This document shows, piece after piece, positions 2,995-49,680 of a stretch of 64,000 nt of DNA. The stretch comes from a virus (taxonomy: Duplodnaviria; Heunggongvirae; Uroviricota; Caudoviricetes), in the IMG/VR virus record IMGVR_UViG_3300019487_000021; one strand, given 5' to 3'. The notes beneath the pieces were generated by a model. The model saw only the letters and a program-made list of their open reading frames with translations, searched no databases and had not been told where the DNA came from. The translations under genes and the position numbers were made by a program. Position 1 is the first letter of the stretch. Each line of letters starts with the position of its first letter.

Positions 2995-3002
2995 TATTTA
3001 TA
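2995..3002 (-). promoter_or_regulatory. T4-type late promoter TATAAATA driving tmRNA
   Basis: Exact TATAAATA just upstream of the acceptor piece. Confidence 0.7.
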
Positions 3003-3133: not shown

Positions 3134-3667
3134 TTAACTGCCTTTGCGGACACCTTTGTTTCGTGCCCAATCAAGGTCAAGATCCTCACCATATTCCTCG
3201 ACAATTTTGATCTCCTTCACCGTGTCTTTGATGTCCGGCAGATCTTTGATGTTCATATCGCCAATGTCGTACGAAAGAGTGATGTGTGGATAGTATTCGT
3301 CGTAGTCATACTGAGCGCTATGCTCCTTCATCAGCTCTTTGTGGCGCGTTTCAAGTTCGGGGCACGAATATTTCAACACAAGGCAGTTTGTTGGTTTACC
3401 ATCAGAGCCGGCCGGTGGACGAGTCTTCCACACCTCAAAGCTTTTTGGGGTGCCAATCAATGGTTTGTCAAGCTTACCAGCTGGCTTGTAGTTAGGAAGG
3501 TATTTCCTGCTATACAAGAGCGTACTGTGTAGCCGATCCGGACGTACCGAGGTTGGGATTTTGTTATCGTGGATATACTTGTGTATCGCTTTGTTCGTCG
3601 CCGTGTCAAATCTCACTCCTGCGTACGAACCCTTCTTCTCTTTGTCAGTCACTTCCCATAGTAACAT
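3134..3667 (-). CDS. acb1: 2H phosphoesterase, T4 gp57B/Acb1-like anti-CBASS nuclease
   Basis: 'LHSTLLYSR', 'FEVWKT', 'YYPHITLSYD', 'EYGEDLDLDW' parallel T4 57B motifs as I recall them. Confidence 0.8.
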   Translation of the reverse strand: MLLWEVTDKEKKGSYAGVRFDTATNKAIHKYIHDNKIPTSVRPDRLHSTLLYSRKYLPNYKPAGKLDKPLIGTPKSFEVWKTRPPAGSDGKPTNCLVLKYSCPELETRHKELMKEHSAQYDYDEYYPHITLSYDIGDMNIKDLPDIKDTVKEIKIVEEYGEDLDLDWARNKGVRKGS

Positions 3668-3688
3668 CACTCGTCTCCAGCTCCCGTT

Positions 3689-6803: not shown

Positions 6804-8570
6804 TCATACAGCTACGTCCATTTTGACCGGTGGATGAGATATGTACCCTTCAACAACGAAGTCATCGTACTTGAAACCATCAATTGAGTCAACCCTTTTG
6901 TTGAATCGAAATTTTGGCGACTGATACGGTTCTCTTGTGATCTGTTCTTGCAAAGATTCAACGTGGTTAACATAGATGTGTACATCAGCACCACTCCAAA
7001 TGAAATCGCCTGGTGACATATTTGCAACCTCGCAAAACATTCGAAGCATTAGACTGTATTGAACGATATTAAATGGAACACCAAGTCCAACATCACATGA
7101 CCGTTGATTCAGTAACAGCGACAATTCGTATTTTGGGACTTTGTTTTCATCGAGGATTTGTTCTATGTTATCCATTGATCCATCATCCGGAATGTGATAA
7201 AGACGTGTCATTGAATACAACCTCTCTTGAACAGTTAGTGGTTTTGCATATAGTTGAAACGTATAGTGACATGGAGGCAATGCTTGACGACCAAGAGAAG
7301 CGTTTTCAGAAGGAGAAATGCCATCGAAGGGCAAGAGCCCTGGATGCCAACCCGACACAATGAGACGGCGGTCGTTTGGTGTGTTCTTCAGTTTCCAAAC
7401 GATAGTAGCGACTTGATCAATCGTGTTTGGATATCGAACAACGAAGTTTTTATTGACAAATGGTTCAACCTCAAAACCGTTTATAAGTGTTTTTACTTTT
7501 CCAAGACGTCTCGCTTTGATTACTACTGCTGTTGTCCCCACAAACTTTGCCGCGGTGTTTTCACATGGAAAGAACAGTGTGCTAGATGGTGAAGATAAAA
7601 CAATAGGCACAGCATCCTTGCGGTAAAGATTGTTGTGTGATCTTGGAAGCCACACACACGTTTCAGGATGGTAAAGTTTTGAAGAACCGTAATAGTCTTT
7701 GTCAAGGACATAGTTCTGTTTTTGTTGCTTGACAAACCAGTTGGGCAGCAGTTTGACGTCTTCAAGAAAATCGCTCAAAACTTTCCAGCGTTCGCACACT
7801 TTTACGCCTTGCTTGCCGTGTGTTTCAAAAGCTATATCATTAGGATTATAACATCGAGACAGCATCAGTTCCCACGTTCGTCGTAAGTGTTTGTTTTGTT
7901 CCGTTTCTTTTTTGTTTCGATAGTTACCAAGTGCTCCAATCCCATAGATAGACGGCACCGACTGATCCACAAATCGACCTGAACGAACCAATCTTGTGCT
8001 AACACCATGTTTTATCCAGCCACTTTGTTCAAACCGAACAGCATAAGTTGTCGTTCGTCCTTTAGCCCCATTATTTTGAAAACCATCTACACCAAGAACA
8101 ACATAGCACCTTCCCTGTATGTTTGTAAATCGTTTGTTTGAATATTTTCCTTCCGATAAGATCATTGTTGGTACAACATCTTGCCAAGAGCGCATCTTCG
8201 TATTGTCTATAACGTTTCGAATGGGCGTTGGTGAAAACGTTGGAGGGGGCGGATAAGCTCTCCACATGGCGCCGTAAACTGGACCTAGTTGACTTTTGTT
8301 ATTCTTCCATTCATCCCATATCGTGATTTGGTGTTGTTCAAGATATTTCACATCTTCGCGACCTGACATCATCCACAATAGTTCATGAATTATCGACTTT
8401 GTGTGCACCTTCTTGGTCGTCAGTAATGGAATCGAATAGTCGCGCAGATCGAAACGCATTTGATAGCCGAACACACCGATCGTGTCGATCCCTGTGCGGT
8501 TTGGTTTTTGAACGCCGTGCTCGAGAATGTGCTTAACGCACGCAATGTATTGTTCGTCGTGTGTTACCAT
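6804..8570 (-). CDS. thyA: thymidylate synthase with about 274-aa in-frame HNH insertion
   Basis: 'NRTGIDT', 'LLTTKK', 'ELLW', 'LGPVYG', 'ALPPCH', 'QRSCDVGLGVPFN', 'DVHIYVNH'. Confidence 0.95.
   Translation of the reverse strand: MVTHDEQYIACVKHILEHGVQKPNRTGIDTIGVFGYQMRFDLRDYSIPLLTTKKVHTKSIIHELLWMMSGREDVKYLEQHQITIWDEWKNNKSQLGPVYGAMWRAYPPPPTFSPTPIRNVIDNTKMRSWQDVVPTMILSEGKYSNKRFTNIQGRCYVVLGVDGFQNNGAKGRTTTYAVRFEQSGWIKHGVSTRLVRSGRFVDQSVPSIYGIGALGNYRNKKETEQNKHLRRTWELMLSRCYNPNDIAFETHGKQGVKVCERWKVLSDFLEDVKLLPNWFVKQQKQNYVLDKDYYGSSKLYHPETCVWLPRSHNNLYRKDAVPIVLSSPSSTLFFPCENTAAKFVGTTAVVIKARRLGKVKTLINGFEVEPFVNKNFVVRYPNTIDQVATIVWKLKNTPNDRRLIVSGWHPGLLPFDGISPSENASLGRQALPPCHYTFQLYAKPLTVQERLYSMTRLYHIPDDGSMDNIEQILDENKVPKYELSLLLNQRSCDVGLGVPFNIVQYSLMLRMFCEVANMSPGDFIWSGADVHIYVNHVESLQEQITREPYQSPKFRFNKRVDSIDGFKYDDFVVEGYISHPPVKMDVAV
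7428..8249 (-). mobile_element. in-frame HNH homing-endonuclease-like domain inside thyA
   Basis: 'TWELMLSRCY...VKVCERW...F...LDKDYYG...YHPETCVWLP..HN' between ThyA 'WRAYP' and 'NTIDQ'; no intein termini. Confidence 0.75.
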
Positions 8571-8890: not shown

Positions 8891-9077
8891 TGTCGTCTCC
8901 TTTTGTGTCTTCGACAGTAAACAAGACTCGCTCTGGAATCCACTTGTGCCAAGTTCCATCGCGGTCATGCACAGGAGTGATTTCAACAAGAACTTCATCT
9001 TTCTTTGAAGATAAGGTACGTGTTGCTTGTCGACCAGTCTTTTTGACTTCAATGTGTTCGTAAACGTATGATTTCAT
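8883..9077 (-). CDS. hypothetical protein
   Basis: 64-aa ORF coupled (ATGA) to the Thg1-like stop. Confidence 0.6.
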   Translation of the reverse strand: MKSYVYEHIEVKKTGRQATRTLSSKKDEVLVEITPVHDRDGTWHKWIPERVLFTVEDTKGDDND

Positions 9078-9999
9078 TCAACAGGTCTCCATTGTAGGCC
9101 ATCCCATTCTATGGTCAGACCTGTTACCACGTCGACAAATCTCGCACCTTCCTGTGGTCCGTCAGGACCATTCGAAATAGGCGACAAGTGTCGTTCAACA
9201 AATGGACGATCTTGGGAGAATATTGGTGGATCGTCGTCAATCATTCCCCGCGGGAATGACATAAATGGACTCCAGTCAGCGCGCTGATAAACACACGCTC
9301 CGCGTTTCTTCCATGTCGTGAGCGCGTCCCAATTAACTTGATGCTTAGACCACAACATTTCCTGAACCTCGCTGATGCTCTTACCGTGCATTTCTTTCTG
9401 CGAGAAGTAGAATCGACCAAGCATGTTCACGCTGTTACGTGAAGCGTCTTGTTGTCGCCACAAGAAATAGTTGGTGACTTCTTCTTTAGGAAGATTGTAC
9501 GCACGAGCGTCAAACTGTGCAAGTTCTTGAGTTGAACAAGGAACGAACTTCGCAACGTGATTTAGGAGGTAATTGAATGCTGTTGCGGCAATTGATGACG
9601 ACAGGGAGACGATCTTCTGTAAGTTCCCTCCGAACCATTGCTGTGTTTCCAATCGGTCCCAGTCACGTAACAAAATGGAGATCTCATCACTTTGCGTGTA
9701 AACAAATACTGCTGTTTGTAGTTGGTTGAACAATGTTGCAGCTGTGTAGGTCATCGTCTGGTGAAGCATTTCACTAAATGGACCTAAGCGCAACGACGGG
9801 TCCTCAATTTTGTTCGATGTAAGCGAGCTTCATCGAAACTATCAGGAGGAATTGGTTGTGGAGCAACAAATCGTTTTGTGAATGTGTGGAATGCTCGTCC
9901 ATCAACACGAACAATAATCGGGGTGCGTCGGAGCAATGTTGATTGAGACGTTGCTTCGTACTCCTTCATGCGATCGCCGAGGGTTGTTTTGTCTGTCAT
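9074..9999 (-). CDS. Thg1-like 3'-5' nucleotidyltransferase, split in two frames (9999-9784 and about 9826-9074)
   Basis: 'LGDRMKEYE', 'RVDGRAFHTFTK' in ORF1; 'YTQSDEISI', 'QFDAR', 'YFLWRQQDASRNS', 'WKKRG' in ORF2. Confidence 0.85.
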
Positions 10000-10040: not shown

Positions 10041-11897
10041 TTACCTCAACGATTCAGATGCGATGATCCACTGTTTGACGAACTCGCTTCGAACGATATC
10101 GTGATGTGTAAAGCGGATTGTGTTGAAAGAAGGAAGGTGGGGTAGAACTCGTAAAAAGTCCCCCATACCCGATTTGTCGTGTGAAGATCGTAGATCTGTC
10201 TGCGGCACGTCACCAACAAAAATCACTCGAGTGTATTTGCCAACCCTCGTCATGATTGTGTTGATTTCATCCCATCGCATGTTTTGTCCTTCGTCGACCA
10301 CAACAACGGCATTGTCCCATGTTAAGCCGCGCAAATATGATGTTGTGCAGAACTCAACTAGTCCTGCCGCTTTCATATCATCATATGTTGAGTACTTTCC
10401 AAAGAAGTTGTGGAACATATCACGATATGGTGTCTCATACACTCCGGATTTCTCTTCCAAAGTGCCTGGTAGGAAGCCTTGTTCGCGACTAGGTACAGCA
10501 GAACGTACGATGATAATACGATCGATTCCGCTATCTTTACGAAGCAGTTCGTTAAGAGCGAGCCATAATCCGACGAATGTGTTGTGGGTAATGACGTAAT
10601 CATCGGTAATATATAGATGATCCTGATCATCTATCATAATGCATTGTGCTTCCTCCTGACTTGTTAGTTCAACACTAATAACTTGGCGACATAGTTGTTT
10701 TTGTTGATATGTGTCGTGACACAGGTCACGTTTTCGTGGTAGAGAAAAAAGTTCTTTGGGTTTGGGATAAGAGATAAACAACGTATATGCGACTCGCCCA
10801 ATTTTTCTTTCATCTTTGTAAGTGTATGTAGGCTGTCGTGTTTTTATTGAACATTTTGCACCAAGCGACCAAAGAATTTCTTGAACGTCACAAGCAAGGT
10901 GTGGACTGGTTGTAGTAAATGAAACCCCTCCGTTTCGCTTACTAACGGTTCCGTCAGTATCCATAAGACCACGTAGGAGTTCCAAACGTTGCTCTATACT
11001 TCCTTCTTTATAAGACTTAGGAATAAATTTTTCGTGCGAGCGTTTTCCATATAAAGCAAGCTCTTTCAACTTATCGGTGTAATTGTTGGTCTTCTTCCTC
11101 CCTCCACGTTGATATATTCCATCACGGTAATGAGTAAGATTTACGATATTGTAATCGTAAGTTCCTGTTGATTGTTTTAGACTATATTCTTCTTTTTGAA
11201 GAATTGTTTGAATTGTTTCAACAATGTGTCGGTCAGCAGATGATAGTTTGGGCGTGCTCTGTGAAATGTGTCCATCCCCCAACAACACACCTAACAAATA
11301 CGGATCAATAAGTAAATATTGTGTTGGCTGTTCAATGGCATTAACAAGATCAATAGAAATGTTAGCAGGACTATTTCGTGTAGTTTTTTCATCCAACCAC
11401 ACCGAAAGAAACTCTGTATTAACAATTTTTTCAGTGCTATCCTTTGTATTCCAAAAATCACTTGGAACGTGACATTTCCACAAATGTTCCGCACAAGCTT
11501 GGGCTGTGGCACCATCACTAAAAGTAATGGTAAAAATATCCTTTTTACCTTGTGAGAAAACACCAATAACGGTCGCAGAGGTATTTTTAGGTGTGAGCAC
11601 CTTATCCCCAACAACGATATCGCCCATAAATTTCCACCCTTTTGGTGTGAGAATTTTACTATGAAGAGGTTGTGCTTTTCCTGTTCCGGCAGAGCCGTGT
11701 GCACAGATGTTTTTACCCATGATGAAGTCATGAAACATCTCTTCTTGTGCGGGGGTAAGTGGTTTAATTTGTCTCAAGTCGTGCATTGTCCATGTTTTAC
11801 GGCGCGGTCCTTCCTCCATTGCTTTTCCATTGAGGACAAGTGCCTCAGTAATGTCATAAAGTTCATTGCGCTTCGAAGCTTTCCTTCTCTTGGACAT
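10041..11897 (-). CDS. phoH: PhoH-family ATPase with intein
   Basis: 'GSAGTGK|TF', 'GFLPGTLEEK', 'YLRGLTW', 'VDEGQN', 'GDVPQTDL', 'DIVRS'. Confidence 0.95.
   Translation of the reverse strand: MSKRRKASKRNELYDITEALVLNGKAMEEGPRRKTWTMHDLRQIKPLTPAQEEMFHDFIMGKNICAHGSAGTGKAQPLHSKILTPKGWKFMGDIVVGDKVLTPKNTSATVIGVFSQGKKDIFTITFSDGATAQACAEHLWKCHVPSDFWNTKDSTEKIVNTEFLSVWLDEKTTRNSPANISIDLVNAIEQPTQYLLIDPYLLGVLLGDGHISQSTPKLSSADRHIVETIQTILQKEEYSLKQSTGTYDYNIVNLTHYRDGIYQRGGRKKTNNYTDKLKELALYGKRSHEKFIPKSYKEGSIEQRLELLRGLMDTDGTVSKRNGGVSFTTTSPHLACDVQEILWSLGAKCSIKTRQPTYTYKDERKIGRVAYTLFISYPKPKELFSLPRKRDLCHDTYQQKQLCRQVISVELTSQEEAQCIMIDDQDHLYITDDYVITHNTFVGLWLALNELLRKDSGIDRIIIVRSAVPSREQGFLPGTLEEKSGVYETPYRDMFHNFFGKYSTYDDMKAAGLVEFCTTSYLRGLTWDNAVVVVDEGQNMRWDEINTIMTRVGKYTRVIFVGDVPQTDLRSSHDKSGMGDFLRVLPHLPSFNTIRFTHHDIVRSEFVKQWIIASESLR
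10581..11675 (-). mobile_element. 365-aa LAGLIDADG intein (Ala1, class 3 WCT signature) in the PhoH Walker A motif
   Basis: Starts AQPL, block B 'AEHLW', LAGLIDADG-like 'GVLLGDG' and 'RGLMDTDG', block F 'AQCI', ends 'ITHN|T'. Confidence 0.92.
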
Positions 11898-13934: not shown

Positions 13935-14008
13935 TGGAGCGGGTAGGGAGAATCGAACTCCCGCATACACCATGGCAAGGTGTCAGGCTGCCATTACATC
14001 ATACCCGC
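13935..14008 (-). tRNA. trnG: tRNA-Gly(GCC)
   Basis: Cloverleaf, ACACC-TTGCCAT-GGTGT arm, CCA encoded; TATAAATA 7 nt upstream (14016-14023). Confidence 0.9.
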
Positions 14009-15125: not shown

Positions 15126-15458
15126 TCAACCATGTTTTTCCTCCTGCAGTAACTGAAACTTACGCATTGGTTTACGTTCATCACCGTACAACGGTCGTGT
15201 TGCAATTGCAGTATGCCCAGTATTGTAGTCGGGCTCAAAGAACATTTCATGGTCGATTTGGTGACGGTTAAGATAGTCAGCAATCTTCAACAGATCGTGT
15301 TCACTCTTCGCGCCGATCAACACGATGAATGATGTCTCAGCTGGCTTTTGAAAGCGAAAACCAGCTTCCAAAGCTGCATGAGAGGCTTGCACAATCTGTT
15401 GCGGTGTGGACAAGTCCTGCCGCACGAAGATGTACGTGTAAGGTTTCGCCTAGGTCAT
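15126..15458 (-). CDS. Pth2-like peptidyl-tRNA hydrolase family protein with in-frame TAG at codon 3
   Basis: ATG ACC TAG GCG AAA...; 'YTYIFVRQDL...QIVQASHAA', 'HTAIATRPL'; ATG overlaps upstream TGA. Confidence 0.7.
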
Positions 15459-15808
15459 TTTGACACCTCCAGACCGATTTTGATGGCTGACCACATATCG
15501 TCTGGAATTGCATCGCCGTAACGATTACAGAACGCTTGAACGAACGAGCTTTTCGAATTTGACGCTCGTTGTTGGGCGATCCATTTCAGATCACTCATGG
15601 CTCGCGTGTAGCCTTGCCATGCGTCTTTGTAGTATGGGTCGATTTTACGCTCGTTTTTGAACGGCGAAAAGCCGTGTTTCAGATCCTTGGCGCGGAGAAG
15701 GTTGTAGAGAATATGGTCCTTCGCCGTCAACTGTTTCTGTCGAGCGATCTGTTTGTACGCTTCTTGGTACGTGTGAAACTTCTGTTTGTCTTGAAAAATG
15801 AACTTCAT
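15455..15808 (-). CDS. conserved-looking phage hypothetical protein
   Basis: ATG 15808 with AGGAG SD; 117 aa, 'HILYNLLR...GFSP'. Confidence 0.7.
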   Translation of the reverse strand: MKFIFQDKQKFHTYQEAYKQIARQKQLTAKDHILYNLLRAKDLKHGFSPFKNERKIDPYYKDAWQGYTRAMSDLKWIAQQRASNSKSSFVQAFCNRYGDAIPDDMWSAIKIGLEVSK

Positions 15809-15927
15809 TTGCAATCTCCTAATGTCATGGTTAAAGATGTGGAACCGAAACGACAAAGAGATTGCGGAGGATCGCGAGCGCGAACCTACGTGAAACCAGC
15901 TACCTATGCTTTCTTGACACGCTTCAT
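15805..15927 (-). promoter_or_regulatory. putative leader ORF with two amber codons and SD-sequestering hairpin
   Basis: MKRVKKA*VAGFT*VRARDPP...K(TGA); GCAATCTC (15865-15858) pairs with GAGATTGC (15818-15811). Confidence 0.6.
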
Positions 15928-20840: not shown

Positions 20841-20913
20841 TGCGGGATAGAGCAGTGGCAGCTCGTTAGGCTCATAACCTAAAGGCCGGGGCGTTCGATT
20901 CCCTCTCCCGCTA
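20841..20913 (+). tRNA. trnM: tRNA-Met(CAT)
   Basis: TTAGG-CTCATAA-CCTAA arm; 1:72 mismatch; no encoded CCA. Confidence 0.8.
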
Positions 20914-20920
20914 CTTTCGG

Positions 20921-21863: not shown

Positions 21864-22784
21864 ATGATGTATGGCAATAAGCTCGCCGTAGCTATTAAAC
21901 ATAACGGCAAAGTCCTTCGCGAATTCAAGGACATCATCTATCTGCCTTTCGGTGCAGAATACTCAATCTATATCAAGAACATGGACACTGTCCGTGCATT
22001 GGTCAAAATTTCGATCGATGGCACGGACATTGGCGATGGCACAGAGTTTGTTGTGCCGGCTCGTGGCTCGATTGAAATTGAGCGTTTTGTCAAAAATGGC
22101 AACTTCAACCAAGGCAATCGTTTCAAGTTCATTGAACGAACTGCACGTATTGAGAATCATCGTGGGATTGGTTCTGAAGATGGTATCGTTGTCATCGAGT
22201 ACAAATTCGAGCAGCGACCGCCAAAAACTGAATTCGTGATCAAGAAAGAGATCATTGAACGCGAATATCACGATAAGTGGGTTCACACACCACGGCGTCG
22301 TTCGCCTGATTGGCCTTTTCCATATAATCCGCCGATTATTTGGTGTTCCAATACGTTAGGTGGCAACCGTTTAATGAATAATGCTGACACGGTGACCGTC
22401 AATAATTTGATGGCTCAGAATGCTCAGGGTGTAACATTTAGTGCAAACGATGGTGCTCAACAAATTTCTTGCAGCGCGCCCGCAAGCGCAATGAGTCATT
22501 CAGTGATGGATTCAGCACAGATCCCGATGAACGCAATCAACGAGAACGGAATTACGGTAGCAGGTGGTGTTTCTGATCAACAGTTTCACACTGTTGCTTG
22601 GTTTCCTACCGAAGCAGATAGCTACACACTTGTTCTTCGTTTGCTTGGCAAAGTCGAGACCGGTAAGGCAGTTGTTGAAGCTATTACTGTGAAGAAGAAG
22701 CAAAAATGCACCAGTTGCGGACACGTAAACAAGGCTAGCGCTAAGTTCTGTGCCGCGTGTGGTACTTCATTAGAATTGATTTGA
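21864..22784 (+). CDS. hypothetical protein with C-terminal double zinc ribbon
   Basis: 'CTSCG...AKFCAACG'; GAGGAG SD. Confidence 0.75.
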   Translation: MMYGNKLAVAIKHNGKVLREFKDIIYLPFGAEYSIYIKNMDTVRALVKISIDGTDIGDGTEFVVPARGSIEIERFVKNGNFNQGNRFKFIERTARIENHRGIGSEDGIVVIEYKFEQRPPKTEFVIKKEIIEREYHDKWVHTPRRRSPDWPFPYNPPIIWCSNTLGGNRLMNNADTVTVNNLMAQNAQGVTFSANDGAQQISCSAPASAMSHSVMDSAQIPMNAINENGITVAGGVSDQQFHTVAWFPTEADSYTLVLRLLGKVETGKAVVEAITVKKKQKCTSCGHVNKASAKFCAACGTSLELI

Positions 22785-22863
22785 TTTTGGGAACATGTCG
22801 GGGCGGGAAAACGCCCCGACTTTTCCGGATGAATATAAATACCCCACTAACTGGAGGGGTATA

Positions 22864-23244
22864 ATGTCATCTTTGTCCGACTTTGTCGCTGCCAACAAAA
22901 CACTAACTAAGATCGCGGCCGAAGTTGCTGCAATTGCGACGCTTGCAACAGCAGCCCAGGCTTTTGATGGCCGATACGTTAAGACAGCAGACTTCGAGAA
23001 CTATCAAGCACGTCAAGAACAACTCAGCCAAAAGATTGTTGTTCGTCAGGACATGAACACGGCTCAACTTCGTGTTCAACAACTCGAAGACAAACTATTC
23101 GAACTCCGTCAGATCGAACGACCAACTCAGGCTCAGCGTGCTTTGATCCTTCGCTATGAAGATCAGTTGCGAGCAGCGTCAGCTGCTCTGCGGGAAGCTG
23201 AACTTACACTTCGTAACCTTGAAGTTGGTAAACCGGTTCGTTAA
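22864..23244 (+). CDS. hypothetical protein, N-terminal hydrophobic helix plus coiled coil
   Basis: GGAGG SD; heptad-rich C-terminus. Confidence 0.6.
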   Translation: MSSLSDFVAANKTLTKIAAEVAAIATLATAAQAFDGRYVKTADFENYQARQEQLSQKIVVRQDMNTAQLRVQQLEDKLFELRQIERPTQAQRALILRYEDQLRAASAALREAELTLRNLEVGKPVR

Positions 23245-23915
23245 TTGTTGAACACTTTTGGCACCAGACCACCAAGATGCTCTGGTGTTGGCTGTCCTGT
23301 GGCCAATCGTAAGAATGCTCGAATCTTGACAATCGACACAGCTATTGACATGTAATGGTGGAAAGCTTGAATGCCATATTGTCTCGGTCCTTGTGGGATC
23401 GCGATGATCGAATCAACAAGTCCAACGAGCTCATTAGTGTTCACGATGAACACTCCACCGCCTGAGTTGCCGAAAGAAATGTTAACGGTCATTACCAATT
23501 GTCCCGCTGTGTTTAATCCTTGAAACCGTCCGTCGGTTGCAAATTGAACTTGTGTTAATTCTGGCAACGGAAATCCTACAGCGACGAGAGGTTCGTCGAT
23601 CATCGGAAGTCTTTCTGAAAGTGAACCGCATGGACAGTGTATGTCAGGCGCGTGTAAAAGTGCGATGTCGGCTGCTTGATCAATCTTGACGATTTTTGCT
23701 GTGGCATTATTTGGACCTATATAGATCTGTGCTTTGGGAACAGCTTCGACAACGTGTGCAGACGTAAGCAAATATCCGTTAGCAATCACCACTGCCGATC
23801 CGTGTGCACCACCAATTGATACCCCATACACCGTTTGGCGTACAACCGAATAATCTTGGGCATTGGTATTGGTGAAACACAACAACATTGCAACGAACAC
23901 TAGTACTTTCTTCAT
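23241..23915 (-). CDS. secreted trypsin-like serine protease
   Basis: Signal peptide; 'LTSAHVV', 'DIALL', 'GNSGGG' catalytic triad. Confidence 0.85.
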   Translation of the reverse strand: MKKVLVFVAMLLCFTNTNAQDYSVVRQTVYGVSIGGAHGSAVVIANGYLLTSAHVVEAVPKAQIYIGPNNATAKIVKIDQAADIALLHAPDIHCPCGSLSERLPMIDEPLVAVGFPLPELTQVQFATDGRFQGLNTAGQLVMTVNISFGNSGGGVFIVNTNELVGLVDSIIAIPQGPRQYGIQAFHHYMSIAVSIVKIRAFLRLATGQPTPEHLGGLVPKVFNN

Positions 23916-24033
23916 GTGTTTCCTCCGTCCGATAACCCTATTTATGTTGACACTTTCTGTCGAATCTTGGAAAGTCACATTCGACTTGTTCTGACAAGGG
24001 TAATGGGGATTTGTTTTCTTAAGCCATAAATAC

Positions 24034-24112
24034 GCTCGAGTAGCTCAGTGGTTTCAGAGCGGCGGTCTCTAAAACCGAATCGGTCGGGGGTTCGAATCCC
24101 CCCTCGAGCACC
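24034..24112 (+). tRNA. tRNA with CTA anticodon (amber suppressor)
   Basis: GCTCGAG acceptor, GCTC/GAGC D-stem, loop CT-CTA-AA, GGGGG-TTCGAAT-CCCCC, ACCA; CATAAATA directly upstream. Confidence 0.85.
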
Positions 24113-24173
24113 AACACTAAGCGCTCAAGACTTGAAACAGACCTTTCACTTTTTACTAGACGGGAGTATTATC

Positions 24174-25511
24174 ATGACAAAAGCGTACAAGACTTACATC
24201 GGCATTGCCCGCGATCGAAGCGGTTCCATTCGCAGCTACGGACTCGAGCGTCCATGCGCAAGAGATTACAACTCACAGCTGCAAGAAATTCAACACAACA
24301 CTCAACAGCATCAACTCGACAGTATCATCAGCGTCGTCGATTTCGGCAGCTCCATCGAACCTTTCGTCACTGTGCTGCCCGTGATGTCTGTTCAACCTCA
24401 ATCTGAACACCTGTTCAAAGCAACTCTCGGTCAGACTCGTCTTTACGATGCGGTTGGTTACCTGATCAATCAGTTCTCACGTATGCCGGATGCGAACGAT
24501 CCGAACGTATCGTTCCTGATCCTGGCAATCACCGACGGTGAAGAGAATGCTTCATACGAGTGGCTCGGCAGCCGTCTCGGTGGTGAGATCTTCAAGCTCC
24601 ACGCAACCGATCGCTGGACGTTCACGTTCCGCGTCCCTCATGGATACAAACGTTCGCTTGTAAACATGGGGATTCCTGCGAACAATATCATGGAATGGGA
24701 ACAAACGGAACAAGGTCTCCGCGTTGCTGAAACTGCAACTCGTGCGGCCACAGCGTCGTATTTCAGCGCACGTGCAACAGGTGTTGGTTCGACTAAGGCA
24801 TTCTACACGACTGACCTAAGTGGTGTTGACGTCAAAGCGATTCAATCGACGATGACGGACATCTCCGCCCAAGTGAATGAGTGGAAGGTCACCGCATCCC
24901 ATTGCTTTGAGATTCGTGACTTCTGTGAACGCATGACCGGCAAGCCAATGCTTCGTGGTGCAGCGTTCTATGAACTCGTTAAGAAAGAAGACGAAGTTCA
25001 AGAGTACAAGCTGATCATGATTCGTGATCGTGCAACGCGTGCTGTCTACGCTGGTCATGGTGCTCGTCAGCTTCTTGGTCTTCCGACAACTGGAACGATT
25101 CAACTGCGTCCAGGTGATCATGCTGCGTACGACGTATTCATCCAGTCAACATCTGTAAACCGTAAGTTGCCAGTCGGCACAACTCTGATGTACTGGCCGA
25201 ATGTTGGCGTTGGTTATATCGATGGCAAAAGCTCAGCAAAAGCTGCTCCTGTGCATGCGAAGATTACAAAGGTCCGCAAAGCTGGTGATCCAGCTCAATT
25301 GATTCGCAAAAAACAAATTGCGGCTGGTTTCACTCAACCAACAGCTTTGGCAAATAGTGTCGACTATAATGTCGGCTACAAGATCGGCTACAAAGACGGC
25401 CGTGGCAAGAAGAAGAATCTTGCTAATGCTGGTCAGTATTCTGGCAACGTTGCTGGGTATTCACATGGTTTCGCCGATGGAAAGGCGAAGAAGCCAATGG
25501 CAGTAAAGTAA
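24174..25511 (+). CDS. vWA-domain protein
   Basis: 'ARDRSGSI' DxSxS, 'TRLYDAV', 'ITDGEENAS'; C-terminal 'GYKDG' repeats. Confidence 0.75.
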   Translation: MTKAYKTYIGIARDRSGSIRSYGLERPCARDYNSQLQEIQHNTQQHQLDSIISVVDFGSSIEPFVTVLPVMSVQPQSEHLFKATLGQTRLYDAVGYLINQFSRMPDANDPNVSFLILAITDGEENASYEWLGSRLGGEIFKLHATDRWTFTFRVPHGYKRSLVNMGIPANNIMEWEQTEQGLRVAETATRAATASYFSARATGVGSTKAFYTTDLSGVDVKAIQSTMTDISAQVNEWKVTASHCFEIRDFCERMTGKPMLRGAAFYELVKKEDEVQEYKLIMIRDRATRAVYAGHGARQLLGLPTTGTIQLRPGDHAAYDVFIQSTSVNRKLPVGTTLMYWPNVGVGYIDGKSSAKAAPVHAKITKVRKAGDPAQLIRKKQIAAGFTQPTALANSVDYNVGYKIGYKDGRGKKKNLANAGQYSGNVAGYSHGFADGKAKKPMAVK

Positions 25512-25522
25512 GGCCCTACGTT

Positions 25523-25561
25523 CTAGGACAAACGCCGCCTTCGAGCGGCGTTTTCTTTTTT
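25523..25561 (+). terminator. intrinsic terminator
   Basis: AAACGCCGC-CTTCGA-GCGGCGTTT followed by T-run. Confidence 0.7.
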
Positions 25562-25633
25562 CGGTTCAGAGGGATAGAAAACGTTCACTTGCCCCTTGTC
25601 TCCTATAAATATCCTAAACACAGGAGATCCTCA

Positions 25634-27064
25634 ATGAAACAAGGGTTCATCATTTCCAAGAACAGAACCAGCAAACTGTTCTTCAGCTCACGCAGCTCCT
25701 ACAACCGTCCTGTCTGGACGGACAACCTCGAAGAAGCAGCGATTTATCATAGCGACGCATCTGGTTCTGATGCTGTGAAAAAGCTGTGGGTGCGAGGCTC
25801 CTACAGTGCCAAACTAACACCGTTAGCTGAACTCGAAGCGTTTAAGATTGACCCTGAAACCGAAGAGAAGACCCCAATCGAACCACATCACGACGATGTC
25901 GATTCAGCAGTGTCGCCGGATTCAGACATCCCTACTGACGATGCAGATTCCGACATGGATGCAGATTCCGATGATTTACCATCCGACGTGGATGCAGATG
26001 CTGATTCCAGCGAAACTGAAACCGAGAAGGAAACTTGTCCGAAATGCGGCAAAGCAGGACAACACAAAGAAGATTGTGAAATGGCTTTTGTTGCGCAGGA
26101 TGAAGAGCGTTCAGCCGTTAATACAGGCAACCTGTTTCACGCTGACGAGCCGGTGATGTGGAACGGACACAACGCAACAGTTATCGTACCAAACGCACAA
26201 GCTGATTTCGTTGTAATTCGTGTTGATGGACTTGACAAAAAGGTTCCATATAAGGATGTTCAGAAGGTTCGTTCAGAATCTATTGAAGGTGTTAATCCGC
26301 AAATGGCATATGCTGCTCGTGCCGCTGCATGGGATCGCGCTGGATTGGGTGCAGGCGAACGAGCAGGTCAAGCACGCGCTGGAGAACATGCATGGAGTGA
26401 TCGTCCGAAGCGCGTTTACGTAATCTATAACGGTCGCAAGTACGATTTCGAAAACAATGCACCAGCTGCCGTTCAATTCATTCGTAAACTGACTCCAGAC
26501 GAACAGAAATTAGCCAAGTTGGTTACTGAAGATTCTCACATGCCTAAGCGTCCTGGCAATGATCCAGCTCCTCCAAGTGAGAATGATGACACAATTCCAA
26601 ACCTAACAGAACCAAAGGTTAGTGAGGTTGATTTCGACGACCCAGTTGGTGAGGAAAACAGGCCAGAAACAGATCTGACATATGCAACAGCTATGAATCA
26701 TGATGAGAAAGTCAAGATTCCTGGCAACGTTATGTCAGCACTCAAGGCAAGTATCGACACGTTCCGCAAGGCAGCTGACTACAACAACACGCGTGATGAT
26801 GCACAGGCGTCATTCTGCATGACAGTTGCTGGTGCTATGGAAGAGTTGCATGATCATCTTTCACAGGGCACTGTTGCAGGTATGAAGCAAGCTCAGATCA
26901 AAATGTCTTCTTGGATGAATCCAATCACAACAAACATTCCTGAGGTTGTTCGATTGTTTGTTGTCAATGGTGGTCGTCAGCCAACGTTGAAGGATATGTT
27001 TGACTTCAAGCGTGGTCAAGCACTGTTGAAGCGTGCATCAAAGGGCTTCGGTTACAAGGACTAG
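25634..27064 (+). CDS. large acidic hypothetical protein
   Basis: Asp-rich low-complexity middle; TATAAATA and AGGAG upstream. Confidence 0.75.
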   Translation: MKQGFIISKNRTSKLFFSSRSSYNRPVWTDNLEEAAIYHSDASGSDAVKKLWVRGSYSAKLTPLAELEAFKIDPETEEKTPIEPHHDDVDSAVSPDSDIPTDDADSDMDADSDDLPSDVDADADSSETETEKETCPKCGKAGQHKEDCEMAFVAQDEERSAVNTGNLFHADEPVMWNGHNATVIVPNAQADFVVIRVDGLDKKVPYKDVQKVRSESIEGVNPQMAYAARAAAWDRAGLGAGERAGQARAGEHAWSDRPKRVYVIYNGRKYDFENNAPAAVQFIRKLTPDEQKLAKLVTEDSHMPKRPGNDPAPPSENDDTIPNLTEPKVSEVDFDDPVGEENRPETDLTYATAMNHDEKVKIPGNVMSALKASIDTFRKAADYNNTRDDAQASFCMTVAGAMEELHDHLSQGTVAGMKQAQIKMSSWMNPITTNIPEVVRLFVVNGGRQPTLKDMFDFKRGQALLKRASKGFGYKD

Positions 27065-40476: not shown

Positions 40477-40898
40477 ACGATATTCAACAAATGTGTCTTG
40501 ATCACTTTAACGAGCCAGTACTCCTGAGCTTTGAGCTTGCTCGCTTGATAGGCTATGCCGAAGACGCCGATGACTGTTATTTGATTGTCAAGTATCCAAG
40601 AAAAGGCGTTGTATGGCATACAGCTGTTGGTGGATATATATTTCTTGATAAATTAAAAGGACAAGGTGCTGTGGTACCGTCATGCCCTTCTTACGAAGGT
40701 GAAGTGTGGGATGATTTTTACCGTTTGGATAATTTGTTAGAAATAACCGGTGTCACAAAGGAAAAAGAATTTATCGTAGATATAAGACCGCATCAAGTAT
40801 ATACGAAAATATCGAGGGAGTTTGGCGCAGCGGTAGCGCAAGATCCTTACAAGATCGAGGTCGTAGGTTCGATCCCTACAGCTCCTACCATGGATTGA
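40473..40898 (+). CDS. hypothetical protein ending inside tRNA-Val
   Basis: 141-aa ORF. Confidence 0.6.
   Translation: MNDIQQMCLDHFNEPVLLSFELARLIGYAEDADDCYLIVKYPRKGVVWHTAVGGYIFLDKLKGQGAVVPSCPSYEGEVWDDFYRLDNLLEITGVTKEKEFIVDIRPHQVYTKISREFGAAVAQDPYKIEVVGSIPTAPTMD
40816..40890 (+). tRNA. trnV: tRNA-Val(TAC)
   Basis: GATC-CTTACAA-GATC, CCA. Confidence 0.9.
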
Positions 40899-41286: not shown

Positions 41287-41361
41287 GGGAGCTTAGCTCA
41301 GCGGTAGAGCAACTCGTTTCACCGAGAAGGTCGTAGGTTTCAATCCCTACAGCTCCTACCA
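41287..41361 (+). pseudogene. degenerate tRNA-Val copy (6-nt anticodon loop)
   Basis: 3' end nearly identical to tRNA-Val 40816-40890. Confidence 0.6.
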
Positions 41362-48135: not shown

Positions 48136-48222
48136 GGCCGCGTGGTGTAATCGGTAGATGCGCGAGTCTCAAAAATTCGTGTCCTTACGGGCGTGTGGGT
48201 TCGAATCCCACCTCGGCCACCA
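48136..48222 (+). tRNA. trnL: tRNA-Leu(CAA)
   Basis: CGAGT-CTCAAAA-ATTCG, CCA. Confidence 0.9.
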
Positions 48223-49588: not shown

Positions 49589-49680
49589 GGAAGTGTGGCA
49601 GAGCGGTTGATCGCACCTGTCTTGAAAACAGGCAAGGGCTGATGAGGTCCTTCGTGGGTTCGAATCCTACCACTTCCGCA
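49589..49680 (+). tRNA. trnS: tRNA-Ser(TGA)
   Basis: CCTGT-CTTGAAA-ACAGG, long variable arm. Confidence 0.9.

What the first reader, a model, noticed from the sequence alone, without database searches (positions are those of the whole stretch)
24025..24112. Stand-alone amber-suppressor tRNA with its own late-type promoter
The anticodon loop is CT-CTA-AA. Its arm (CGGT...ACCG) matches this phage's tRNA-Trp arm (CGGT-CTCCAAA-ACCG), suggesting a Trp origin. It lies outside the main array, directly behind CATAAATA. Many genes here end normally in TAG, so this is not genome-wide recoding. Inference: timed, partial suppression that unlocks amber-gated genes (15126-15927) and may extend TAG-ending proteins. 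The acceptor/T helix looks one pair short or has a 6-nt T-loop, so efficiency may be low.
Basis: partly seen in the sequence, partly recalled or inferred. Interest (0 to 1): 0.8.

Follow-up and report, generated by a model that had tools for sequence, protein, structure and literature searches.

The report
Phage amber-suppressor tRNA with dedicated targets
A giant phage that otherwise uses the normal genetic code carries a real tRNA that reads the stop codon UAG. It most likely exists to unlock one small operon 8.6 kb away, which holds three in-frame UAGs: two in a regulatory leader peptide and one at codon 3 of a peptidyl-tRNA-hydrolase-like gene.

Summary
The tRNA is real. It lies at 24034-24113 (+), has anticodon CUA, scores 64 bits against the Rfam tRNA model, has a canonical cloverleaf and encodes its own CCA. 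The same tRNA sits at the same place in three diverged relatives, with many compensatory stem changes and an unchanged anticodon loop.

The window uses the standard code: TAG ends about a fifth of ORFs.

I found three in-frame UAGs, all in one minus-strand operon:
- Two lie in a leader peptide (15927-15805). It ends in an R-x-P-P stalling-type motif placed directly before a helix that hides the next gene's ribosome-binding site.
- One is codon 3 of a Pth2-fold gene (15458-15126).

The leader design recurs in seven contigs in all. The early UAG of the Pth2-like gene recurs in 17 lineages, including cultured jumbo phages. All 12 UAG-bearing genomes or contigs I could scan carry a tRNA(CUA).

- The T arm is normal.
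- The molecule as a whole is not Trp-like.
- By T4 geometry, the CATAAATA late motif 1 nt upstream would start transcription inside the tRNA. In three relatives the motif next to the downstream gene lies after the tRNA.

This scan has noted the tRNA/Pth2 pairing before on other DNA. The comparative support for the leader is new here.

The parts
24034..24113 (+). tRNA with anticodon CUA (amber suppressor type). It has a 7-bp acceptor stem, a 4-bp D stem, a 5-bp anticodon stem with a G27.A43 mismatch, a 5-bp T stem, discriminator A73 and an encoded CCA.
   Evidence: ARAGORN. Rfam RF00005 at 64.1 bits. Syntenic orthologues in L001, L067 and L072. Covariation in 17 of 19 pairs across 11 phage suppressors.
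24025..24032 (+). CATAAATA, the phage's T4-like late-promoter motif. It ends 1 nt before the tRNA and more probably serves the downstream gene at 24174-25511.
   Evidence: Motif enrichment, 23 against 4.8 expected. Sites lie 15-40 nt before start codons. T4 geometry of -13 to -6 (PMC1524935). No second motif lies between the tRNA and the gene.
24174..25511 (+). Downstream gene (445 aa, phrog_26613, function unknown; some distant homologues are annotated as vWA-domain or minor tail protein). It is the conserved right-hand neighbour of the tRNA.
23241..23915 (-). Trypsin-like protease gene transcribed divergently from its own ATAAATA motif (23945-23939). It is the conserved left-hand neighbour of the tRNA.
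   Evidence: The same neighbour is seen in L067 and L072.
15805..15927 (-). Leader uORF. The SD GGAG is at 15937-15934 and the ATG at 15927. In-frame TAGs lie at 15906-15904 and 15888-15886. The R-D-P-P motif has its PP codons at 15870-15865. The TGA stop at 15807-15805 overlaps the next gene's ATG.
   Evidence: The same design occurs in L064, L065, L068, L069, L070 and L071.
15811..15864 (-). Anti-SD helix. The 5' arm starts directly after the PP codons, and the 3' arm (15820-15811) contains the SD of gene X.
   Evidence: MFE folds: -29.5 kcal/mol, z -3.4 for the window. The same arrangement with different arm sequences appears in six of the seven contigs (L069 was not folded).
15455..15808 (-). 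Gene X (117 aa, all-alpha, phrog_22448, function unknown). It is always the first gene after the leader.
15126..15458 (-). Pth2-fold gene that opens SD-ATG-ACC-TAG (TAG at 15452-15450). Its start overlaps the stop of gene X (ATGA).
   Evidence: AlphaFold pLDDT 91.4. Foldseek top hits are Pth2 structures at TM 0.65-0.77.

Best explanation
The gene encodes a functional amber-suppressor tRNA that host enzymes charge with an unidentified amino acid. Its selected job is not a change of the genetic code. It reads three specific UAG codons in one operon, 8.6 kb away on the other strand.

Inferred mechanism:
1. Without charged tRNA(CUA), ribosomes on the leader stop at codon 8. The helix downstream stays closed and hides the ribosome-binding site of gene X.
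2. With the tRNA, ribosomes pass both leader UAGs and reach the R-D-P-P motif, where they pause.
3. The paused ribosome's footprint melts the 5' arm of the helix, which begins at the very next nucleotide. This frees the ribosome-binding site.
4. The Pth2-like gene that follows needs a third read-through at its codon 3.
5. Output should therefore rise steeply with the ratio of charged suppressor to release factor 1. This makes the tRNA a key or timer for the operon.

Read-through of ordinary TAG stops would be a tolerated side effect.

Shown here: the tRNA, the UAGs, their conservation, their co-occurrence, the helix and the Pth2 fold.
Inferred: charging, pausing, the switch logic, and when the tRNA is made.
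For: 1. The tRNA is real and under selection. Rfam gives 64 bits. Orthologues sit at the same place in L001, L067 and L072, with anticodon CTA and its loop retained (CTCTAAA in the window, L067 and L072; TTCTAAA in L001) while the stems carry compensatory changes.
2. In the window, exactly one gene fits SD-ATG-(1-2 codons)-TAG followed by a long ORF. TAA and TGA controls give only noise.
3. The same opening occurs in the Pth2-like gene, or HD-Pth2 fusion gene, of ME3, RsoM2USA, BF, CBB, XacN1, Xoo-sp13, Arash, pT24, Kaldavass, RAS14, LR756511, LR756501, L064, L066, L068 and L070.
4. All 12 UAG-bearing genomes or contigs I could scan for tRNAs have tRNA(CUA). RaK2 has neither the UAG nor the tRNA.
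5. The leader with in-frame UAG, then [R/N]-x-P-P, then an anti-SD helix recurs in seven contigs in all, with covarying helix arms. Gene X is homologous in all of them.
6. The contigs whose Pth2-like gene has lost its UAG (NODE_21 = L065/L067, Ga0673000 = L071/L072, and L069) keep both the leader UAG and the tRNA.
7. The base after every gated UAG is a purine (27 of 27). After ordinary TAG stops in the window it is a purine in 4 of 13 (Fisher p = 3e-6). From my own knowledge, a purine there favours amber suppression in E. coli.
8. Starting instead at the next GTG would delete most of strand beta-1 of the Pth2 fold.
Against: - No expression, charging or proteomic data exist for this phage.
- No convincing promoter for the tRNA was found. 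Sigma-70-like hits are at chance level, and the late motif is too close to the tRNA.
- R-D-P-P is not the characterised RAPP or RGPP motif, so stalling is assumed.
- Some relatives have an in-frame ATG shortly after the UAG (XacN1, L064), so re-initiation could make a slightly shorter protein there.
- The functions of gene X and of the Pth2-like protein are unknown, so the purpose of the switch is open.
- The purine comparison mixes gated codons from many genomes with stops from one window.
Confidence: 0.62

Rival explanations
1. The CATAAATA motif is the tRNA's own late promoter, so the suppressor appears late and weakly (defective T arm, Trp-derived) and unlocks the amber-gated genes on a timer.
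For: The motif is the phage's late-promoter motif and abuts the tRNA. Other tRNAs (Gly, Met, Ser, Leu) are also preceded by it, at 7-19 nt. In L072 the identical CATAAATACG precedes an HNH gene that is followed by the tRNA, so late co-transcription is plausible there.
Against: With T4 geometry (-13 to -6; PMC1524935) transcription would begin at tRNA nucleotide 5, leaving no 5' acceptor strand. In L001, L067 and L072 the motif next to the downstream gene lies after the tRNA. The T arm is canonical. Overall identity to tRNA-Trp is only 60%.
Confidence: 0.15
2. The tRNA is a general read-through device or a first step toward TAG recoding (code 15). It would lengthen TAG-ending proteins or buffer nonsense mutations, and the early UAGs would be incidental.
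For: Borges et al. propose that suppressor acquisition precedes recoding (bioRxiv 10.1101/2021.08.26.457843). TAG ends about 21% of ORFs here, so many proteins would be affected.
Against: Extensions after TAG stops are short (median 10 codons). No mid-gene TAG with coding signal on both sides was found. The XacN1 authors found nothing beyond amber stops either (PMC5852040). The gated UAGs are position-specific and conserved across very distant phages, which drift toward recoding does not predict.
Confidence: 0.1
3. The early UAGs are true stops of two- to eight-codon mini-ORFs. These would regulate by termination and re-initiation or by peptidyl-tRNA drop-off. The tRNA(CUA) would be unrelated or would only modulate them.
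For: Two-codon minigenes are known to cause peptidyl-tRNA drop-off (lambda bar minigenes; my own knowledge), and the gene concerned is a peptidyl-tRNA-hydrolase homologue. Some relatives have an ATG 3-5 codons after the UAG.
Against: In the genomes I could scan, the UAG always comes with a tRNA(CUA). The stop is always TAG, never TAA or TGA. It is always followed by a purine. RsoM2USA has no ATG, GTG or TTG between the UAG and the conserved core. The leader's PP motif and helix lie beyond the UAGs and would never be reached.
Confidence: 0.08
4. The tRNA does not work in translation. It could be a decaying copy, a decoy for host tRNA-cleaving defences, or a processing signal in the leader of the downstream late mRNA.
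For: No promoter is evident. A late transcript would carry a 5'-truncated tRNA as its 5' end.
Against: The cloverleaf is perfect and CCA is encoded. The anticodon loop is kept in every suppressor aligned (CTCTAAA in ten of eleven, TTCTAAA in L001). Compensatory changes occur in all four stems across relatives that share only 61% protein identity in the neighbouring gene.
Confidence: 0.05

Closest known systems
Orphan tRNA(CUA) genes of cultured standard-code jumbo phages (XacN1, vB_AbaM_ME3, RsoM2USA, BF, CBB)
   Same: They are the same kind of gene in the same kind of genome. The suppressors align with this one at 72-78% identity and share the loop CTCTAAA.
   Different: The XacN1 paper reported that no target gene could be identified (PMC5852040). 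Here and in those phages I find a conserved UAG at codon 3-4 of a Pth2-like or HD-Pth2 gene. In this phage's closer relatives there is also a UAG-containing leader.
Suppressor tRNAs of TAG-recoded phages (genetic code 15: crAss-like, Lak and others; Borges et al., bioRxiv 10.1101/2021.08.26.457843; Peters et al., PMC9523058)
   Same: A phage-encoded tRNA(CUA) is proposed to switch on genes that contain in-frame TAG, acting as a post-transcriptional regulator.
   Different: Those genomes carry in-frame TAG in many late and lysis genes and avoid TAG as a stop. This window has three gated UAGs in one operon and uses TAG as an ordinary stop.
Arrest-peptide attenuators with C-terminal RAPP-like motifs (ApdA, ApdP; also SecM and MifM; PMC7897499, PMC10951233, PMC12992588)
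   Same: A short upstream ORF ends in R-x-P-P (L068 has R-A-P-P exactly). It lies directly before a helix that sequesters the SD of the next gene.
   Different: The known examples sense protein export and regulate Sec or YidC components. Here the input would be read-through of UAG by a phage tRNA. The window's motif is R-D-P-P, and several relatives have N-x-P-P.
prfB (RF2) autoregulation by an early in-frame UGA
   Same: An early in-frame stop makes gene output depend on the competition between a release factor and an alternative decoding event.
   Different: prfB uses a +1 frameshift and senses its own product. Here the alternative event is decoding by a dedicated suppressor tRNA, and the product is a Pth2-fold protein.
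E. coli su7 (tRNA-Trp-derived amber suppressor)
   Same: The inner anticodon stem and loop are the same as in tRNA-Trp apart from the C35-to-U change (14 of 17 positions).
   Different: The acceptor stem, D arm, variable loop and discriminator (A73) differ from this phage's tRNA-Trp, with 60% identity overall. Only the ME3 suppressor looks Trp-like throughout.

Membership tests
tRNA (Rfam RF00005) | Covariance-model score above the gathering threshold, with a full cloverleaf | tested here: met
   64.1 bits against 29, model positions 1-71. ARAGORN agrees.
tRNA (Rfam RF00005) | Stems maintained by compensatory change in relatives | tested here: met
   17 of 19 predicted pairs show double changes across 11 phage suppressors.
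Amber suppressor tRNA | Anticodon CUA in a 7-nt loop with U33 and a purine at position 37 | tested here: met
   The loop is CTCTAAA. Ten of the eleven suppressors aligned share it; L001 has TTCTAAA.
Amber suppressor tRNA | Aminoacylated and able to insert an amino acid at UAG in vivo | not testable with these tools
   This needs acid-gel or mass-spectrometry analysis of the charged tRNA and a reporter assay. The amino acid is unknown. G1-C72 and A73 argue against GlnRS, and Lys, Phe or Gln remain possible (my own knowledge of identity rules).
TAG-recoded phage (genetic code 15) | Many genes interrupted by in-frame TAG, and TAG rare as a true stop | tested here: not met
   Under table 11 the window is 89% covered by ORFs and tRNAs. 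TAG ends 21 of 99 ORFs. No mid-gene TAG has coding signal on both sides.
Gene driven by a T4-type late promoter | NATAAATA motif upstream | tested here: met
   CATAAATA lies at 24025-24032. The motif is enriched about five-fold.
Gene driven by a T4-type late promoter | Transcription start (6 nt after the motif) lies at or before the mature 5' end | tested here: not met
   Only 1 nt separates the motif from the tRNA. The predicted start is at about 24038, which is tRNA nucleotide 5. This applies T4 geometry and is not measured in this phage.
tRNA-Trp-derived suppressor (su7-like) | Whole-molecule similarity to tRNA-Trp apart from the anticodon | tested here: not met
   60% identity to the phage's tRNA-Trp, against 74-76% to Phe, Arg and Lys tRNAs and other suppressors. 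The anticodon arm alone matches at 14 of 17.
RAPP-like arrest-peptide attenuator | Short uORF ending in R-A/G-P-P upstream of the regulated gene | tested here: inconclusive
   The window has R-D-P-P, L068 has R-A-P-P, L064 has R-I-P-P, and the others have N-A/G-P-P.
RAPP-like arrest-peptide attenuator | A stalled ribosome would open a structure that sequesters the downstream SD | tested here: met
   In the six leaders folded, the helix arm starts 0-1 nt after the PP codons (in L070 it overlaps them) and pairs with the SD.
RAPP-like arrest-peptide attenuator | Demonstrated ribosome arrest | not testable with these tools
   This needs toeprinting or a reporter assay.
Peptidyl-tRNA hydrolase 2 (Pth2, PF01981) | Sequence match above the Pfam threshold | tested here: inconclusive
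   21.2 bits against a cutoff of 23. Two homologues carry PF01981 in precomputed annotation.
Peptidyl-tRNA hydrolase 2 (Pth2, PF01981) | Pth2 fold | tested here: met
   The model has pLDDT 91.4. The top 13 PDB matches are Pth2 or Bit1 structures at TM 0.65-0.77.
Peptidyl-tRNA hydrolase 2 (Pth2, PF01981) | Hydrolase activity on peptidyl-tRNA | not tested
   I did not compare catalytic residues. The substrate could be a peptidyl-tRNA, an aminoacyl-tRNA or something else.

The most novel reading that the evidence does not exclude
The suppressor tRNA is the trans-acting key of a three-lock circuit: two UAGs in an arrest-peptide leader, and one UAG at codon 3 of a Pth2-fold gene. The circuit would convert the ratio of charged phage tRNA(CUA) to release factor 1 into a steep on/off decision for a tRNA-directed hydrolase. 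That would be a tRNA-sensing translational attenuator of a type not yet described, and it would explain the 'orphan' suppressor tRNAs of jumbo phages.

A more remote variant (about 3%): late transcripts start inside the tRNA, and the phage's Thg1-like enzyme (9077-9793) rebuilds the missing 5' nucleotides.
Probability: 0.45. Interest if true: 0.85.

Novelty: new variant of a known kind. Interest (0 to 1): 0.74.

Why it matters
Suppressor tRNAs have been reported in standard-code jumbo phages for years without a known target. The XacN1 authors looked for one and found none. A conserved, position-specific UAG in a tRNA-directed hydrolase gene gives these tRNAs a concrete and testable job. So does a UAG-gated arrest-peptide leader in this lineage.

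It would also show that stop-codon suppression can regulate a single operon, and need not be a genome-wide code change. Several cultured phages (ME3, RsoM2USA, BF, CBB, Arash) carry the tRNA/Pth2 module, so the idea can be tested at the bench now.

It also matters for annotation. Gene callers either truncate these genes or miss them altogether.

Tried and rejected
- A megablast of 22000-26000 against INPHARED found nothing. No whole genome is held for this window.
- An exact-pattern search for the tRNA's anticodon region in IMG/VR found nothing.
- The metagenome scan with the neighbouring protein returned only the lineage already found.
- A codon-bias scan for mid-gene TAGs gave no convincing candidate, and the score discriminates weakly.
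- Sigma-70 promoter scans around the tRNA were at chance level.
- The two IMG/VR relatives are 10-16% fragments and lack the Pth2-like region, so they say nothing about it.
- No HD-domain homologue of the second gated gene seen in RsoM2USA and XacN1 lies in this window.
- Gene X has no Pfam family, only an unannotated PHROG (phrog_22448), no PDB fold match at E <= 0.001 and no usable Atlas neighbour.
- The TAG-then-PP leader was not found in the short stretches fetched from distant cultured phages.
- I could not assign the amino acid from sequence. Nearest-neighbour identities to Phe, Arg, Lys and Thr tRNAs are all 74-76% and do not discriminate.
- The second 'CTA' call in L001 (10583-10655) has A33 and C37. 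It groups with odd-loop tRNA-like genes, so I did not count it as a suppressor.

Full report
**The object**

ARAGORN finds 34 tRNA genes in the window. One of them, at 24034-24113 on the + strand, has anticodon CTA. Rfam's tRNA model matches it end to end at 64.1 bits, against a gathering score of 29.

Read directly from the sequence, it has:
- a perfect 7-bp acceptor stem;
- a 4-bp D stem with a 10-nt loop;
- a 5-bp anticodon stem whose top pair is a G.A mismatch;
- the anticodon loop CTCTAAA;
- a 7-nt variable loop;
- a T stem of five G-C pairs with the canonical loop TTCGAAT;
- discriminator A and an encoded CCA.

The extra nucleotides sit in the D and variable loops.

**The genome**

No close DNA relative exists among deposited phages. 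Proteins point to a large T4-like or Rak2-like jumbo phage.

Genes identified in the window:
- PhoH carrying a LAGLIDADG intein
- PRPP synthetase
- a NadR-like NUDIX protein
- NAMPT
- Thg1
- Acb1
- thymidylate synthase
- NAD-dependent DNA ligase

Under the standard code, ORFs and tRNAs cover 89% of the window, and TAG ends 21 of 99 heuristic ORFs. I found no mid-gene TAG with coding signal on both sides. This is not a recoded genome.

**Conservation**

The downstream 445-aa gene has relatives at 61% identity in IMG/VR contigs. Each carries a tRNA with anticodon CTA just upstream. Two further contigs, reached through homologues of the Pth2-like gene, have the same trio of trypsin-like protease gene, tRNA(CUA) and 445-aa gene homologue (L067; L072).

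Between these orthologues the stems differ by compensatory changes, while the anticodon and its loop are kept (TTCTAAA in L001, CTCTAAA in the rest). Across 11 phage suppressors, 17 of 19 cloverleaf pairs show double changes. A decaying or chance tRNA is excluded.

**What it reads: the Pth2-like gene**

In the window I scanned for a good Shine-Dalgarno sequence, a start codon, one to six codons, a stop, and then a long open frame. This gives one clean case for TAG, and only noise for TAA and TGA.

That case is the gene at 15458-15126 on the minus strand. It opens ATG-ACC-TAG, seven nucleotides after GGAGG, and its ATG overlaps the stop of the preceding gene.

Its product models confidently (pLDDT 91). 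The best PDB matches are all peptidyl-tRNA hydrolase 2 structures, at TM 0.65-0.77. Pfam PTH2 scores just under its threshold. The next possible start, a GTG, would remove most of the first beta strand.

I then read the start of the homologous gene in the following phages and contigs:
- Cultured phages: ME3, RsoM2USA, BF, CBB, XacN1, Xoo-sp13, Arash, pT24, Kaldavass and RAS14.
- Uncultured phage genomes: LR756511 and LR756501.
- Metagenomic contigs: L064, L066, L068 and L070.

All open with a start codon, one to four codons, and then TAG. In XacN1, Xoo-sp13 and RAS14 the gene is fused to an HD domain, and the UAG sits at the head of the fusion.

Four lineages lack this UAG: RaK2, L065/L067, L069 and L071/L072.

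**What it reads: the leader**

A short ORF starts at 15927 behind a GGAG. It reads seven codons, TAG, five codons, TAG, and then V-R-A-R-D-P-P. It runs on to a TGA that overlaps gene X's ATG.

The nucleotide after the second proline codon begins a helix. The other arm of that helix contains gene X's Shine-Dalgarno sequence (MFE -29.5 kcal/mol, z -3.4).

The same design is present in L064, L065, L068, L069, L070 and L071. Each has an in-frame TAG, then six to seven codons ending in [R/N]-x-P-P (R-A-P-P in L068), and then the anti-SD arm. That arm starts at once, and in L070 it overlaps the PP codons. L069 was read but not folded. The helix arms differ in sequence but stay complementary. Gene X is homologous in all of them.

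R-A-P-P and R-G-P-P are established ribosome-arrest motifs of bacterial leader peptides (PMC7897499, PMC10951233, PMC12992588).

**Co-occurrence**

- Every UAG-bearing genome or contig I could scan for tRNAs has a tRNA(CUA): the window, ME3, RsoM2USA, BF, CBB, XacN1 (two copies), Xoo-sp13, Arash, pT24, Kaldavass, RAS14 and L070.
- RaK2 has no UAG in this gene and no tRNA(CUA) among its tRNAs.
- The three lineages that lost the UAG in the Pth2-like gene keep the leader UAG, and they keep the tRNA.
- So the dependence runs one way, as expected if the UAGs need the tRNA.
- The base after each of the 27 gated UAGs is A or G. After ordinary TAG stops in the window it is most often T, with a purine in 4 of 13 (Fisher p = 3e-6).

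**Mechanism proposed**

Without charged tRNA(CUA), ribosomes leave the leader at codon 8, the helix stays shut and gene X is not translated. With the tRNA, ribosomes reach the PP motif and pause there, and their footprint opens the helix. The Pth2-like gene then needs one more read-through.

Three required events should make output depend steeply on suppressor activity relative to release factor 1. The biological purpose is open. It could be a delay until phage tRNAs are mature and charged, or a check on the state of the tRNA pool. Gene X is an all-alpha protein with no recognisable relatives.

**The promoter claim**

ATAAATA is clearly this phage's late-promoter motif. There are 23 sites against 4.8 expected, and most lie 15-40 nt before start codons. 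The related phage CBB is described the same way (PMC5259590).

In T4 the motif occupies -13 to -6 (PMC1524935). Here it ends 1 nt before the tRNA, so a late transcript would begin at about tRNA nucleotide 5.

- In L001, L067 and L072, the motif next to the downstream gene lies between the tRNA and that gene.
- In L072 an identical CATAAATACG lies further upstream. An HNH endonuclease gene is inserted exactly between it and the tRNA.
- In the window there is no second motif.

The simplest reading is that this promoter serves the 445-aa gene. How and when the tRNA is made remains unknown. No sigma-70-like promoter stands out. Read-through from upstream + strand genes is possible, because no + strand terminator is predicted between 23244 and 24034.

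**Origin and identity**

The anticodon arm matches this phage's tRNA-Trp at 14 of 17 positions, but the whole molecule is only 60% identical to it. It is closer to Phe, Arg and Lys tRNAs and to the suppressors of XacN1, CBB and BF, at 74-76%.

The shared loop with A36-A37-A38 is what any tRNA reading U-starting codons tends to have. With 33 other tRNAs to compare, a shared 4-bp stem is weak evidence of common origin. The amino acid it carries cannot be read from the sequence.

**What is known**

- Suppressor tRNAs in standard-code jumbo phages are on record. The XacN1 paper states that no target could be found (PMC5852040).
- Recoding as a regulator has been proposed for TAG-recoded gut phages.
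- My full-text searches found no paper linking these tRNAs to an early UAG in a Pth2-like gene or to an arrest-peptide leader.
- Earlier reports of this scan had noted the tRNA/Pth2 pairing on this window and on several other genomes. I re-derived it independently here, and I added the comparative evidence for the leader and the one-way dependence.

Noticed in passing
window 41287-41361 (+): A tRNA-like gene that ARAGORN cannot assign (a 2-base 'anticodon' tc). It shares its acceptor and T arms with the neighbouring tRNA-Val(UAC) at 40816-40890, but its anticodon loop has 6 nt (or 8 nt if the closing pair opens). L001 holds similar odd-loop genes (11074-11148, 10583-10655).
   Followed up: partly
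window 13935-14008 (-), 20841-20914, 48136-48222, 49589-49679: Four other tRNA genes (Gly, Met, Leu, Ser) are directly preceded by the ATAAATA late motif, at 7, 15, 19 and 11 nt. This suggests that part of the tRNA set is transcribed late.
   Followed up: partly
L072 11394-11952: An HNH endonuclease gene is inserted exactly between a CATAAATACG motif and the suppressor tRNA. The window has the same motif abutting the tRNA with no insert. L001 also has an HNH gene just upstream of its tRNA. The tRNA's 5' flank looks like a homing site.
   Followed up: partly
L011 3021-3599 (-) (Ralstonia phage RsoM2USA, just downstream of its Pth2-like gene): An HD-domain gene opens ATG-AAA-TCG-TAG, so it is a second early-UAG gene. 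In XacN1, Xoo-sp13 and RAS14 the HD and Pth2-like domains are fused, and the deposited annotation starts after the UAG.
   Followed up: partly
window 3137-3670 (-): A clear homologue of the anti-CBASS protein Acb1 (Pfam PF23474, E 3e-33).
   Followed up: no
window 10044-11897 (-): A PhoH-like ATPase gene interrupted by a LAGLIDADG homing-endonuclease (intein-type) domain.
   Followed up: no
window 6807-8570 (-): The thymidylate synthase ORF is 588 aa, and the Pfam match is split into two stretches. This implies a large insertion or an N-terminal extension.
   Followed up: no
window 2995-3001 (-) and downstream: An ATAAATA motif with an upstream TTGACT at 17-nt spacing precedes a sequence with a tRNA-like T arm (GAGTTCGAATC). 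ARAGORN did not call it.
   Followed up: no
window 9077-9793 (-): A Thg1-family (tRNA-His guanylyltransferase-like) gene. Relatives L064 and L071 have it too. Enzymes of this family can rebuild tRNA 5' ends, which may matter given the promoter that abuts the suppressor tRNA.
   Followed up: no
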